64,000 bases of DNA, taken from assembly GCA_964016885.1 (NCBI GenBank), contig OZ024749.1, positions 32,550,001 through 32,614,000 of the forward strand, in the 5' to 3' direction. Below, one piece after another: positions 665 through 63,983 of the stretch. Both the position numbers and the translations under genes were made by a program. The DNA is from Eledone cirrhosa (taxonomy: Eukaryota). The notes beneath the pieces are model-generated. The model saw only the letters and a list, made by a program, of their open reading frames with translations, was not told the DNA's origin and searched no databases. Positions within the stretch are counted from its first letter, which is position 1. Each line of letters begins with the position of its first letter.

Positions 665-700
665 TCTTAACATTTCGGACGCTAGTCCTTCATCAGAAGA
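665..700 (-). ncRNA. Minimal type I hammerhead ribozyme motif in a TA-adjacent PLE-LTR-like fragment
   Basis: Minus strand reads TCTT CTGATGA A GGAC TAGC GTCC GAAA T GT T AAGA. Stem I TCTT/AAGA, stem II GGAC/GTCC, loopless stem III ATGT (ACGT-like), putative GUU site. Confidence 0.65.
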
Positions 701-986
701 AAGAATGAGAAATAAAATAGATTGAGGGGACGGGCGGGATGGAATTGGAAAAAATGTCTTTAGATAAAAATAATAAGTCCATTCATGTTGACATCTCTTG
801 CAACACACATATATGTGTGTGATGTTCGGATCTAGCTGTCGAAACGGCCGGAGCTCAGCCGTCGGGGTCCTGACTCTTTTCCTATATATATATATATATT
901 TATACACACACACACACACAAATATATATATATATATATATATATATATATATATATATATATATATATATATATATATATATATA

Positions 987-1058
987 CAAGGTGTCCCAAA
1001 AATGTATACACACTTCAATAGCATTCTAGTAAAAGTGTGTATATTGAGGGACATCCTG
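987..1058. mobile_element. Tiny Tc1/mariner-type MITE
   Basis: TA|CAAGGTGTCCC ... GGGACATCCTG|TA; related copy at 54041-54140. Confidence 0.55.
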
Positions 1059-1236
1059 TATATATATGTATATATATGTGTGTGTGTGCGTGTGTGTGTG
1101 TATGTGTGTGTGTGTGTGTGTGTGTATAAAGGAGGGAAAATATCTAAATAAAATAGAAGCAGAGTTGAAAGGATGATGAGGAAAGAAAGGGGGGGGGGTG
1201 AGAAGTAGTGTTGACCAGTAAGTTGCAGGTGTTTAT

Positions 1237-1710
1237 ATGATGATGATGATGATTATGATGATGGTGGTAGTGGTAGTGGTGATGATGATGATGGTAGTGG
1301 TGGTGACGATGGTGATGATGATGATGATGATGTTGGTGGTGATGGTGGTGGTGGTGGTGGTGGTGGTGGTGGTGGTGGTGGTGATGATGGTGGTGGTGGT
1401 GGTGGTGGTGGTGGTGGTGGTGGTGGTGGTGGTGACGATGGTGATGATGATGGTGGTGATGGTGGTGATGATCATGGTGGTGATGATCATGGTGGTGGTG
1501 ATGGTGGTGATGGTGGTGGTGATGATGGTGGTTCAGTTGTTTGCTTTTTATAAAATGAAGCTGCTTTTGATGCTAGGAGTGGTGTTGTTATTGTTGGTGG
1601 TGGTGGTAGTAGTAGTAGTAGTAGTAGTAGTAGTAGTAGTAGTAAGTTAGTGAGGGTGGTGTGGCTGTTGCTGGTGGTGGTAGTAGTAGTAGTAGTAGTA
1701 GTAGTAGTAA
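1237..1710. repeat. Compound trinucleotide microsatellite (GAT/GGT/GTA)
   Basis: Directly visible. Confidence 0.95.
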
Positions 1711-2536
1711 TTAGTTAATGAGGGTGGTGAGGCTGTTGCAGTGGGTGTTGCTGGCCATTCTTCTTAACAAATGCCTGTGGCCAAGGCCTGCTGAATTACC
1801 ACCACTCAGACTTCAGACTGGGGTAAACAGTCTATACCTCTCTCCCTCCATCCCTCCACCCCCTCACCCATTCCTTCATTGCTTATTTCTATTTTTTTTT
1901 TTCTTTTCTTGCTTTCCCTTTGGTTGTTGTTGTTGTTGTTTCTCTTTCATTTAAATAATATTATTTTGTCTAACTTTACAATGTTATCTCATGGCGCACA
2001 CTTGGGGTAATATTTATGTAAATAAAGTTAGGTAGTTACTTAGTTAGTTAGATGGTCCTTAATAAAATAAGAATTTACAAACAAATATATTATATAATTG
2101 TTTGTAAATTTTATTTGGATTAATACCAAAGATATTTTGCCAACTTGTCTAACCACATTAACTAATGTACTCAACATACATATTCATGCTTTAGATTTTA
2201 CCAGTTTGGGGGGAGTGTTTTTTATTGTGGGGGTATATGGGGTATAAATAAAAACAATAACAACAATAAAAACAACAACAACAACAAAAAACAGTGGAAT
2301 GGTCCTCCATCAATGTTGTCGAAGACTATTCCAGTTGTTTGAAGGATAGTATGCCATTAGATTTTTAAATTTTTTTCCTTTTTTTCCTTTTCCCGTTTCA
2401 AAAACAATGGAATGGTTCTCCATCGGCTTAGACGATGAGTATTCCAGTTGTTTGAAGTATGATGGTGCCCTTTCTGACACCAACCCATCATGTTATGTAA
2501 GGATACGGTGTACCTATTCTAAGCTGGATACATTAA

Positions 2537-2744
2537 CCCTTTAGACGTTAAACCATCCGTATCTGGCCAGAATTCTCTCACCTCTTTCTGTTGAAACCAA
2601 ATGTAACTGGCCACTCATACTGATGTTAAGGCATTGTTCTCAAAATAAATAATATCAAAATCTCATAGATTTGATATTATGTGAGATAAAGTGTTTACTG
2701 TGAAAATATAATAGTAAATATATAGTAATGTAAATGCTAAAGAG
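2537..2744. mobile_element. piggyBac-type MITE
   Basis: TTAA|CCCTTTAG ... CTAAAGAG|TTAA termini with TTAA target duplication. Confidence 0.65.
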
Positions 2745-3254
2745 TTAAATGAAACAAATTATTTGTAAAAAAAAGCATATAATAAATTATTTTTTAAAGA
2801 ATTTTATTAAAAGACAATTTTATCTACATAAGCCTCAAATATTTTCATGAAACCCAGTTTAGGAAACACTGGTATACTGTAATCTCCTTAATCCCCTTCA
2901 TAATTATGTTTCTGATTAAATAAACTGTATTTTAATTAATTAGTGAAGAATTTGGAGTGGCTTGCTAAAATTATTATTTCATTACAACCAGATAGTATTT
3001 ATAACATAACTTAATATACGGTTCTTATGTCGAAGGTTATAATTTTAATAAAAACACTTTAACATTTTTTATATCAACCCAGCCAAAACCAGCTCTGGCT
3101 CTTTGAAACAAAACCACATATTTTAAAGTGTTCTTATTTAAATCAAAATCTTCCAACATAATTTTATATAAGAACCATATGTTAAGTTACTATCTTAGTA
3201 ATGAAGTAATTAATAATTTTAGTAAATCGCTCTAAATTATTCATAAATTTGTCT

Positions 3255-61154: not shown

Positions 61155-61760
61155 ATTTAACACATCTCTAACTAGTAATAGTTTAACACATCTCACTAAC
61201 TAGTAATAATATAACATATCTCTAACTAGTAATAATTTAAAACATCACTAACTGGTAATAGTTTAACACATCTCACTAACTAGTAATAATATAACATATC
61301 TCTAACTACTAATAGTTTAACACATCTCTAACTGGTAATAGTTTAACACATCTCACTAACTAGTAATAATATAACATATCTCTAACTACTAATAGTTTAA
61401 CACATCTCTAACTGGTAATAGTTTGACACATCTCACTAACTAGTAATAATATAACATATTTCTAACTACTAATAGTTTAACACATCTCTAACTGGTAATA
61501 GTTTGACACATCTCACTAACTAGTAATAATATAACATATCTCTAACTACTAATAGTTTAACACATCTCTAACTGGTAATAGTTTGACACATCTCACTAAC
61601 TAGTAATAATATAACATATCTCTAACTACTAATAGTTTAACACATCTCTAACTGGTAATAGTTTGACACATCTCACTAACTAGTAATAATATAACATATC
61701 TCTAACTAGTAATAATTTAAAACATCTCTACCTGGTAATAGTTTAATACTTCTCTAACTT
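61155..61760. repeat. AT-rich 26-28-bp subunit array with an 80-bp higher-order period
   Basis: cacatctctaactggtaatagttt at 61321, 61401, 61481, 61561 and 61641. Confidence 0.9.
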
Positions 61761-61783
61761 GCAATAGTACCAGTTAACTACTG

Positions 61784-63580
61784 CAGTCGTTGGCTGGTAC
61801 TATTGGTACAGTCGTTGGCTGGTACTATTGGTACAGTCGTTGGCTGGTACTATTGGTACAGTCGTTGGCTGGTACTATTGGTACAGTCGTTGGCTGGTAC
61901 TATTGGTACAGTCGTTGGCTGGTACTATTGGTACAGTCGTGGTACTATTGGTACAGTCGTTGGCTGGTACTATTGGTACAGTCGTGGTACTAGTGGTACA
62001 GTCGTTGGCTGGTACTATTGGTACAGTCGTTGGCTGGTACTATTGGTACAGTCGTGGTACTATTGGTACAGTCGTTGGCTGGTACTATTGGTACAGTCGT
62101 TGGCTGGTACTATTGGTACAGTCGTTGGCTGGTACTATTGGTACAGTCGTTGGCTGGTACTAGTGGTACAGTCGTTGGCTGGTACTATTGGTACAGTCGT
62201 TGGCTGGTACTATTGGTACAGTCGTTGGCTGGTACTATTGGTACAGTCGTTGGCTGGTACTATTGGTACAGTCGTGGTACTATTGGTACAGTCGTTGGCT
62301 GGTACTATTGGTACAGTCGTTGGCTGGTACTATTGGTACAGTCGTTGGCTGGTACTATTGGTACAGTCGTTGGCTGGTACTATTGGTACAGTCGTTGGCT
62401 GGTACTATTGGTACAGTCGTTGGCTGGTACTATTGGTACAGTCGTTGGCTGGTACTATTGGTACAGTCGTTGGCTGGTACTATTGGTACAGTCGTTGGCT
62501 GGTACTATTGGTACAGTCGTTGGCTGGTACTATTGGTACAGTCGTGGTACTATTGGTACAGTCGTTGGCTGGTACTATTGGTACAGTCGTTGGCTGGTAC
62601 TATTGGTACAGTCGTTGGCTGGTACTATTGGTACAGTCGTTGGCTGGTACTATTGGTACAGTCGTTGGCTGGTACTATTGGTACAGTCGTTGGCTGGTAC
62701 TATTGGTACAGTCGTTGGCTGGTACTATTGGTACAGTCGTTGGCTGGTACTATTGGTACAGTCGTTGGCTGGTACTAGTGGTACAGTCGTTGGCTGGTAC
62801 TATTGGTACAGTCGTTGGCTGGTACTATTGGTACAGTCGTTGGCTGGTACTATTGGTACAGTCGTTGGCTGGTACTATTGGTACAGTCGTGGTACTATTG
62901 GTACAGTCGTTGGCTGGTACTATTGGTACAGTCGTTGGCTGGTACTATTGGTACAGTCGTTGGCTGGTACTATTGGTACAGTCGTTGGCTGGTACTAGTG
63001 GTACAGTCGTTGGCTGGTACTATTGGTACAGTCGTTGGCTGGTACTATTGGTACAGTCGTTGGCTGGTACTATTGGTACAGTCGTTGGCTGGTACTATTG
63101 GTACAGTCGTTGGCTGGTACTATTGGTACAGTCGTTGGCTGGTACTATTGGTACAGTCGTTGGCTGGTACTATTGGTACAGTCGTTGGCTGGTACTATTG
63201 GTACAGTCGTTGGCTGGTACTAGTGGTACAGTCGTTGGCTGGTACTATTGGTACAGTCGTTGGCTGGTACTATTGGTACAGTCGTTGGCTGGTACTATTG
63301 GTACAGTCGTTGGCTGGTACTATTGGTACAGTCGTTGGCTGGTACTATTGGTACAGTCGTTGGCTGGTACTATTGGTACAGTCGTTGGCTGGTACTATTG
63401 GTACAGTCGTTGGCTGGTACTAGTGGTACAGTCGTTGGCTGGTACTATTGGTACAGTCGTTGGCTGGTACTATTGGTACAGTCGTTGGCTGGTACTATTG
63501 GTACAGTCGTTGGCTGGTACTATTGGTACAGTCGTTGGCTGGTACTAGTGGTACAGTCGTTGGCTGGTACTATTGGTACA
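61784..63580. repeat. 25-bp minisatellite, about 73 copies with occasional 20-bp deletion units
   Basis: Unit CAGTCGTTGGCTGGTACTATTGGTA. Confidence 0.98.
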
Positions 63581-63621
63581 TGACACTCATCCATACACCA
63601 TCCTACATATATATACATAAG

Positions 63622-63806
63622 TGTTTCTACGTTAGGCACAAGGCCAGTAAATTACCCAGTGCATTACTGGTACTTTATTTTATCGACCCCGTAAGGATGA
63701 AAGGCAAAGTCAACCTCGGCGGGATTTGAACTCAGATCGTAAAGGGACGTAACTATGCTGGAAAGCATGGCGTCCGACCCTCTACCGATACTGCCAATCC
63801 ACCGCC
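63622..63806 (-). mobile_element. tRNA-SINE copy
   Basis: Matches family consensus. Confidence 0.85.
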
Positions 63807-63917
63807 ATATATACACATAATAGACACACATACACCACCCTACATATATATACATACATACATACATATGTATATATATATATTAACAAATGGAAACTAT
63901 ATTTATAAAACCATATT

Positions 63918-63983
63918 TATTTCATTATACATATTTCAAGGGCCACCAAGGCAGATTATGGTGCGCTTTCATCAGATAAAATA
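63918..63983 (-). ncRNA. Family C hammerhead motif (element runs off the window)
   Basis: Minus strand TATTTTAT CTGATGA AAGCGCACCA...TGGTGGCCCTT GAAA TATGTA TA ATGAAATA. Confidence 0.7.

What the first reader, a model, noticed from the sequence alone, without database searches (positions are those of the whole stretch)
665..63983. Diverse population of (TA)n-targeted, non-coding, hammerhead-bearing palindromic mini-elements
Seen: hammerhead motifs with paired stems at 665, 20004, 24822, 25189, 28844, 29330, 39769, 41894, 48734, 53823, 55059, 55213 and 63918, from roughly ten families. The families keep CTGANGA/GAAA/NUH while the stem sequences differ completely yet still pair. Nearly all sit in or beside (TA)n tracts, encode no protein, and many are inverted repeat plus unique tail. 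Established: Penelope-like elements carry minimal hammerheads in their pseudo-LTRs and often integrate with inverted 5' ends and a short tail. Inference: these are non-autonomous, retrozyme-like PLE parasites that use TA microsatellites as a target. This diversity and density in a cephalopod-like genome may be undescribed, but I cannot check the literature.
Basis: partly seen in the sequence, partly recalled or inferred. Interest (0 to 1): 0.85.

Follow-up and report, generated by a model that had tools for sequence, protein, structure and literature searches.

The report
Hammerhead-bearing stubs of Penelope retrotransposons
The many hammerhead-ribozyme motifs here are real, but most sit in the short 3' stubs of ordinary protein-coding Penelope-like retrotransposons inserted in TA repeats; only two of ten families lack a gene and are likely parasites carried by the same machinery, so this is largely a known pattern at high density.

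Summary
Observation confirmed: a type I hammerhead descriptor gives 18 hits (12 of the 13 named sites, 5 inverted twins, 1 probable chance hit) against 0.2 in shuffles; stems covary; sites lie beside (TA)n. The 'non-coding mini-element' reading mostly fails. Walking upstream in the own genome, 8 of 10 families (11 of 13 sites) run into RT + GIY-YIG reading frames: five with Hydra-clade motifs, three Neptune/Nematis-type. The window copies are 5'-truncated 3' ends with an inverted 5' piece and an optional tail, the published anatomy of Penelope-like elements (PLEs). Craig 2021 already lists a hammerhead-bearing, (TA)n-targeting Hydra PLE from an octopus; Cervera 2014 already notes single and opposite-strand minimal hammerheads as truncated PLEs. 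Two families are ORF-less head-to-tail units (0.45 kb and 1.9 kb) with the same insertion marks: likely PLE-mobilised retrozymes. A 400-kb spaced sample gives 46 hammerheads, about 1-7 x 10^5 genome-wide. Cleavage and expression are untested. The scan earlier noted a related but ribozyme-less PLE-type repeat in another genome (e1-7810660), not this.

The parts
578..810 (-). Family I: 3' stub of a Neptune-type PLE, minimal hammerhead at 665-700, no inverted arm
   Evidence: 96-97% to ORF-bearing L343/L344
19970..20223 (+). Family J: 3' stub of an older Hydra-type PLE, hammerhead 20004-20100 with long stem II
   Evidence: (EN pieces in sense in 10 of 20 loci)
24781..25077 (-). Family B stub, hammerhead 24822-24887, inverted arm plus tail on the right
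   Evidence: about 87% to the ORF-bearing sister subfamily L411
25131..25318 (+). Family C stub, degenerate hammerhead at 25189, short inverted arm
   Evidence: 87% to L342
28537..28951 (+). Family D: 3' stub of an ORF-less 1.9-kb tandem unit; hammerhead 28844-28901, inverted twin 28737-28794, tail on the left
28998..29585 (+). Family E stub of a Neptune/Nematis-type PLE; hammerhead 29330-29372 (mutated core in this copy), inverted twin 29161-29203, tail on the right
   Evidence: 98% to L218
39670..40285 (+). Family F: ORF-less unit of about 450 nt as a partial head-to-tail tandem (junction near 40160, internal TA run expanded); hammerhead 39769-39811
41826..42026 (+). Family C stub of a Hydra-clade PLE; hammerhead 41894-41942, inverted twin 41842-41890
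   Evidence: 98% to L342
48250..48888 (+). Family G stub of a Neptune-type PLE; hammerhead 48734-48772, inverted twin 48622-48660, SINE inside the inverted arm
   Evidence: 93% to L413
53487..53926 (+). Family B stub; hammerhead 53822-53886, inverted twin 53620-53684, tail on the left
   Evidence: 89% to L411
55013..55147 (-). Family H stub of a young Hydra-type PLE; hammerhead 55059-55105
   Evidence: 100% to ORF-bearing L314/L315/L317
55178..55508 (-). Family A stub of a Hydra-type PLE; hammerhead 55213-55283, inverted tail at the 5' end
   Evidence: 93-94% to L215/L216
63883..64000 (-). Family B stub, hammerhead 63918-63983, cut by the window end
   Evidence: 94% to L411

Best explanation
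Eleven of the 13 sites are 5'-truncated 3' ends of eight protein-coding Penelope-like retrotransposon families, and the other two belong to ORF-less tandem units that are likely mobilised by the same enzymes. Shown: each family has one or two fixed 3' ends followed by (TA)n, scattered 5' ends, often an inverted 5' piece, a type I hammerhead 50-250 nt from the 3' end, and (8 families) an RT + GIY-YIG frame 0.2-2.3 kb further upstream in longer copies. Inferred from known PLE biology: the GIY-YIG domain nicks (TA)n, the RT starts at one of two internal sites behind the hammerhead (giving copies with or without the tail, as shown in vitro for the anole element PAc), most cDNAs stop early, and a second priming event on the other strand leaves the inverted arm. 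Because the hammerhead lies next to the start of reverse transcription, nearly every stub keeps it. The palindromic stem III of most families predicts cleavage as dimers, to cut tandem transcripts into units; that is untested here.
For: A: ORF ends about 0.9 kb upstream in L215 and L216. C: a 753-aa open frame starts inside the hammerhead repeat in L342; EN followed by the C hammerhead in L339 and L322. E: RT-EN ends 145 nt before the matching stretch in L218. G: 743-aa frame, Pfam RVT_1 E 3.5e-6 and GIY-YIG E 2e-4, both just under the curated cut-offs. H: EN plus 2.3-kb 3' UTR contiguous in 3 of 4 long loci. I: RT-EN in sense in 4 of 25 loci. B: RT and EN 1.6-3 kb upstream in L411, EN end in L410. 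J: EN in sense in 10 of 20 loci. Hydra motifs RWR, DKT, CxCX5C, CxxC, CxH, no CCHH in C; EN motifs in A, B, H and J, as defined in PMC8557442 section 11. Two 3' ends in A, B, D, E. D: three long loci with head-to-tail 1.9-2.0-kb units, 20 of 20 further copies start inside the unit, longest Met-ORF 72 aa, 0 of 125 PLE proteins hit. F: unit 430-450 nt, end-to-start junction matched nearly full length in 40 of 40 scored places, also read through in the window.
Against: A truncated stub cannot show its own source RNA: some window copies could come from deleted, non-autonomous derivatives that share the 3' end. B and the 25189 copy of C are only 87-94% like the ORF-bearing loci, so their exact parents were not seen. 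Pfam finds nothing in the Hydra-type frames of A, B, C; their identity rests on motifs and on 385 unnamed homologues. Most ORF-bearing copies are themselves broken or truncated. For D and F only the best 20-40 candidates per search were seen; one F locus of 25 (L245) has a sense EN piece 650 nt upstream, beyond the shared sequence. No cleavage, expression or mobility was tested; no tree against reference PLEs was built.
Confidence: 0.88

Rival explanations
1. The sites are a population of short, non-autonomous retrozyme-like parasites with their own defined ends.
For: True for D and F: ORF-less head-to-tail units. Window copies hold no ORF (one search finds only a 21-aa ORF start overlapping family C and an unrelated RT piece at 55859-56226). 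Many C copies stop just 5' of the hammerhead. A classical 558-bp x 14 hammerhead array exists elsewhere (L455).
Against: 8 of 10 families continue without a break into RT-EN frames, and 5' ends are scattered over hundreds to thousands of bases.
Confidence: 0.08
2. They are MITEs of DNA transposons inserted at TA, the palindromes being terminal inverted repeats.
For: Fold-back shape and TA flanks in 8 of 12 window copies.
Against: Arm length and turning point differ in every copy, 4 of 12 have no arm, one arm carries an extra tail, and the sequence leads to RT-EN frames, not transposases.
Confidence: 0.01
3. The elements are PLE stubs, but the motifs no longer act as ribozymes (protein-binding or dead structures).
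For: Several window copies have broken cores or stems (25189, 29330, 40370). MFE folds give the full three-way junction for only some. Published minimal PLE hammerheads cleave weakly (PMC4209133), 8 of 9 Xenopus dimers did not cleave (bioRxiv 10.64898/2026.07.22.740005), and cleavage was not needed for insertion in vitro (PMC11167929).
Against: Ten unrelated families keep the core and compensated stems; young families (H, 40 of 40 scored copies identical over 133 nt) have intact motifs.
Confidence: 0.15

Closest known systems
Hydra-clade PLEs, including Hydra-1_Obim from Octopus bimaculoides (Craig et al. 2021, PMC8557442 and its File S1/S2)
   Same: C-terminal GIY-YIG, CxCX5C linker, DKT, RWK-like motif, no CCHH, canonical type I hammerhead near the 3' end, (TA)n insertion, inverted 5'-truncated copies, tail.
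   Different: At least five distinct families here (A, B, C, H, J) with 3' UTRs of 0.9-2.3 kb; none of the window hammerheads matches the listed Hydra-1_oBim motif by eye; tails reach about 60-150 nt against the 30-40 bp described.
Neptune (and Nematis) clade PLEs with minimal hammerheads (Cervera and de la Pena 2014, PMC4209133)
   Same: CX2-5CxxC linker and CCHH in G, I, E; unpaired base at the foot of stem II; palindromic stem III; single or opposite-strand motifs 100-700 bp apart read there as truncated PLEs.
   Different: Estimated number here (about 10^5) exceeds the 2,000-9,000 per genome given there, though descriptors differ; clade of E not settled.
Non-LTR retrozymes of animals (Cervera and de la Pena 2020, PMC7229834; Li, Clavereau and Pollet 2026, bioRxiv 10.64898/2026.07.22.740005)
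   Same: F: non-coding, 33% GC, about 450-nt unit with one type I hammerhead in head-to-tail repeats; D: non-coding tandem unit with a hammerhead per unit.
   Different: D is 1.9 kb (published units 170-400 nt, up to 972 bp); both are mainly dispersed, truncated, (TA)n-flanked copies with PLE-type inversions (and a tail in D) rather than long arrays; circular RNA not shown.
Non-autonomous Chlamys PLEs such as MRC1 (PMC8557442)
   Same: ORF-less, pLTR-forming, head-to-tail insertions that ride on autonomous PLEs.
   Different: Those lack hammerheads mostly and resemble their autonomous partner at the 3' end; no such partner was identified for D or F.

Membership tests
EN+ Penelope-like elements | Single ORF with RT and C-terminal GIY-YIG endonuclease | tested here: met
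   8 of 10 families; open frames of 753 aa (C) and 743 aa (G); Pfam support weak for G, E, I, H and absent for A, B, C; motifs. Not met for D and F.
EN+ Penelope-like elements | Pseudo-LTR / partial tandem arrangement with hammerhead in the repeat | tested here: met
   L342: hammerhead repeat directly before the ORF; D and F tandems.
EN+ Penelope-like elements | Variable 5' truncation, inverted 5' copy, optional 3' tail | tested here: met
   (inverted piece in 3 of 24 to 20 of 29 copies by family).
Hydra clade | CxCX5C linker, no CCHH, CxxC and CxH in EN, DKT, RWK | tested here: met
   All in C (RWR variant); EN motifs in A, B, H and J; N-terminal motifs not available for A, H, J.
Hydra clade | (TA)n insertion preference and canonical hammerhead | tested here: met
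Hydra clade | Generally under 3 kb | tested here: not met
   C repeats at 3.67 kb and H has a 2.3-kb 3' UTR; a tendency in the paper, not a strict criterion.
Hydra clade | RT phylogeny with reference Hydra elements | not tested
   No reference proteins were obtained.
Neptune clade | CX2-5CxxC linker, CCHH, DKG | tested here: met
   G has all three, I has linker and CCHH.
Neptune clade | Separation from Nematis for family E | tested here: inconclusive
   E has the linker and CCHH-type residues; no tree.
Non-LTR retrozymes | Non-coding head-to-tail unit with one type I hammerhead | tested here: met
   D and F only; two complete consecutive hammerheads seen for D, only about 1.5 units for F.
Non-LTR retrozymes | Unit of about 170-400 nt (up to about 1 kb), under 45% GC | tested here: inconclusive
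   F 430-450 nt, 33% GC (near); D 1.9 kb, 39% GC (too long).
Non-LTR retrozymes | Self-cleavage and accumulation as circular RNA | not testable with these tools
   No RNA holder listed; only contigs of unknown kind.
MITEs | Fixed terminal inverted repeats and fixed length | tested here: not met
   Arms and lengths vary per copy.

The most novel reading that the evidence does not exclude
This genome carries a few hundred thousand hammerhead ribozymes from dozens of co-active PLE families, a higher density than any animal count I found in print, and two dispersed ORF-less retrozyme families (0.45 and 1.9 kb) bear the full PLE insertion signature, which would be direct structural evidence that animal retrozymes move by PLE target-primed reverse transcription into (TA)n rather than by local satellite amplification.
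Probability: 0.5. Interest if true: 0.5.

Novelty: new member of a known kind. Interest (0 to 1): 0.32.

Why it matters
It explains a large class of short TA-flanked palindromes that annotation would file as MITEs, unknown repeats or miRNA-like hairpins: they are PLE stubs. It adds at least eight PLE families (five to the thinly sampled Hydra clade, with near-intact young copies suited to biochemistry) and two candidate retrozymes whose insertion marks tie them to PLE enzymes, a link so far argued from co-occurrence and trees. If the motifs cleave, about 10^5 of them in a genome would matter for transcripts that read through them. The kind of system is known.

Tried and rejected
Rfam scan: only miRNA-like hairpin matches among the 150 rows shown; uninformative. 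The repeat finder was swamped by a minisatellite. A first link of family A to a GIY-YIG frame in L030 was rejected: that frame belongs to another, Neptune-type family with its own hammerhead, and the junction is a chimera. A first link of family B to a Hydra frame in L213/L214 was rejected: that frame ends in a different 3' end; B was then linked through L410/L411. The direct genome search for family G returned nothing, not even the window itself, so G was reached through a chance neighbour in L180. One search oriented minus-strand loci wrongly; redone. In one search the J anchor failed (0 of 24 matched) and the D anchors were set too early (2 of 20); both redone. The inversion count for F (18 of 24) may be inflated by internal palindromes and is not relied on. 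Expression: no RNA holder listed; contigs of three runs of unknown kind cannot show ends, strand or circles. MITE and chance-motif readings rejected as above. Hit 18418 treated as chance (no other copy among fetched loci).
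Full report
Setting. The window is G000:C9:32550001-32614000 of a 3.0-Gb assembly. It is rich in (TA)n runs and minisatellites.

1. The observation. All 13 sites have the core and a downstream GAAA. A strict type I descriptor gives 5 hits against 0.01-0.13 in 200 shuffles. 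Allowing an unpaired or mismatched base at the foot of stem II, a feature described for PLE hammerheads (PMC4209133, parts 1-2 of 4 read), gives 18 hits against mean 0.2 and max 2 in 100 shuffles: 12 of 13 named sites, 5 inverted twins, 1 probable chance hit. The site at 25189 has lost part of loop II. Stem III is a palindrome or near-palindrome in most families and a 4-bp hairpin in family C. On 14 A/B-type motifs, 95.9% of cells pair, 9 of 21 pairs change on both sides, and slid controls fall to 39-54%; these were chosen by the descriptor, so this supports rather than proves. Single-sequence MFE folds give the full junction for only some sites. All 15 hits lie within 250 nt of (TA)5 against 51% of random positions. 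In genome copies, TATATA starts within 6 nt of the anchored 3' end in 146 of 192 (8 families; 3 copies without anchor and all 24 J copies dropped) against 1.8% background; J 20 of 23 and D 15 of 20 with re-set anchors.

2. What the elements are. Each family has hundreds to thousands of first-look candidates (A 1211, C 378, D 1376, E 785, F 356, H 792, I 2106, J 3498; lower bounds, only 40 scored each). Copies share one or two fixed 3' ends, have scattered 5' ends and often an inverted 5' piece. Walking upstream: A reaches an RT-EN frame ending about 0.9 kb before the matched stretch (L215, L216); C is preceded by EN in L339 and L322 and, in L342, its hammerhead repeat overlaps the start of a 753-aa open frame; E reaches RT-EN within 150 nt of the matched stretch (L218); G has a 743-aa frame in L413; H has EN and a 2.3-kb 3' UTR in 3 of 4 long loci; I has RT-EN in 4 of 25 loci; B has RT-EN in L411 and the EN end in L410; J has EN in 10 of 20 loci. 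Window copies are 87-100% identical to these loci; B and the 25189 copy of C belong to sister subfamilies. A, B, C, H, J carry the Hydra-clade motifs of PMC8557442 section 11; G and I the Neptune-type zinc fingers, E likewise but unplaced. Pfam supports G, E, I, H weakly and finds nothing in A, B, C; C has 385 mostly unnamed relatives of about 700 aa. Two false links to ORFs were caught and dropped.

Two families differ. D forms head-to-tail units of 1.9-2.0 kb in three long loci; 20 of 20 further copies begin inside that unit, the longest Met-ORF is 72 aa and none of 125 PLE proteins hits it; it has two 3' ends, inversions and TA flanks. F has a 430-450-nt unit, its end-to-start junction matches nearly full length in 40 of 40 scored places and the window copy itself reads through it; longest Met-ORF 88 aa, no PLE protein hit. 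One of 25 F loci has an EN piece upstream, outside the shared sequence.

Density. Forty 10-kb stretches at regular spacing hold 46 hits against 0-2 in ten shuffles; 23 of 40 hold none, and 14 hits come from one 558-bp tandem array. That gives about 345,000 genome-wide (bootstrap 112,000-659,000), about 240,000 without the array. All 32 non-array hits lie within 250 nt of (TA)5 against 22% background. The window (17 real hits in 64 kb) is two to three times richer than the average.

3. How it likely works. Shown: anatomy, TA junctions, ORF linkage. From the literature: a purified PLE protein nicks AT-rich DNA on both strands and starts reverse transcription at two internal RNA sites, which explains the optional tail; its hammerhead is protein-assisted and not needed for insertion in vitro (PMC11167929, parts 1-2 of 4 read). 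Inferred: the EN nicks (TA)n, most cDNAs stop early, a second priming gives the inverted arm, and the hammerhead survives in almost every stub because it lies next to the start site. D and F RNAs would be copied in trans; which family serves them is unknown. Dimer cleavage of tandem transcripts is predicted from the palindromic stem III and untested.

4. What is known. Cervera and de la Pena 2014 report minimal hammerheads in pLTRs, thousands of single motifs 'probably related to truncated PLEs' and pairs on opposite strands 100-700 bp apart, with counts of about 2,000, 4,000 and 9,000 for schistosome, coelacanth and frog. Craig et al. 2021 (passages, section 11, supplement part 2 of 59 and octopus rows) describe truncation, inverted copies, tail, (TA)n insertion, the Hydra clade, non-autonomous Chlamys elements, and list Hydra-1_Obim from Octopus bimaculoides with a hammerhead and (TA)n preference. 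Non-LTR retrozymes are described in PMC7229834 (passages and section 14; about 5,000 in mussel, up to 120,000 in axolotl by a section title) and tied to PLEs by co-occurrence and trees in bioRxiv 10.64898/2026.07.22.740005 (parts 1-3 of 5 read; its supplements are closed). An Octopus vulgaris repeat annotation lists 31 recently active Penelope-like families and does not mention hammerheads in its main text (PMC13282606, passages and section 6; supplements not read); PMC8967140 (passages) likewise. Searches for hammerhead or self-cleaving ribozyme with octopus or cephalopod showed no genome-wide hammerhead survey in an octopus, judged from listings; the library lacks most subscription papers, and Repbase or Dfam entries could not be seen.

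5. Novelty. New members of known kinds: eight PLE families and two retrozyme-like families. The possibly new points are the number of hammerheads and the PLE insertion marks on dispersed ORF-less units; descriptors differ between studies, so the density comparison is rough.

6. Verdict. Observation real; interpretation right for 2 of 10 families and wrong for 8. Interest 0.32.

Noticed in passing
window 20246-20435, 23893-24099, 41390-41588 (and a piece near 820-880): An eleventh TA-flanked fold-back family, present in 82-91 fetched loci, with the same anatomy but no CUGANGA core in the upstream sequence seen; possibly a ribozyme-less PLE end.
   Followed up: partly
window 40286-40548: A further family B stub with tail whose core is mutated, so it escapes the descriptor; it interrupts the second F unit.
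   Followed up: partly
window 24618-24712 and 53296-53448: Very short stubs of families J and E that have lost the hammerhead.
   Followed up: partly
window 55859-56226: Broken RT piece related to family E (53% identity).
   Followed up: no
window 6628-16513, 35144-38362, 56364-59146, 61784-63580: Long minisatellites (46 nt x 215, 31 x 104, 27 x 103, 25 x 73); the 27-mer resembles a stretch of a dispersed repeat seen in L005.
   Followed up: no
L455:140-7450 (G000:C4:292000001): A classical retrozyme-like array: 558-bp non-coding unit, 14 copies, one type I hammerhead each.
   Followed up: partly
L213, L214: A Hydra-type family whose 3' end has a CAGAAGA core variant in place of CUGANGA, conserved in many loci, absent from the window.
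   Followed up: partly
L091, L092: An abundant Neptune-type family (5543 first-look candidates, frames up to 987 aa) with its own minimal hammerhead, ending at (TA)n, not among the window families.
   Followed up: partly
flanks of fetched loci: 129 hammerheads in 718 kb fall into 38 rough clusters (17 with 2 or more members), so family diversity is well above ten (biased sample).
   Followed up: partly
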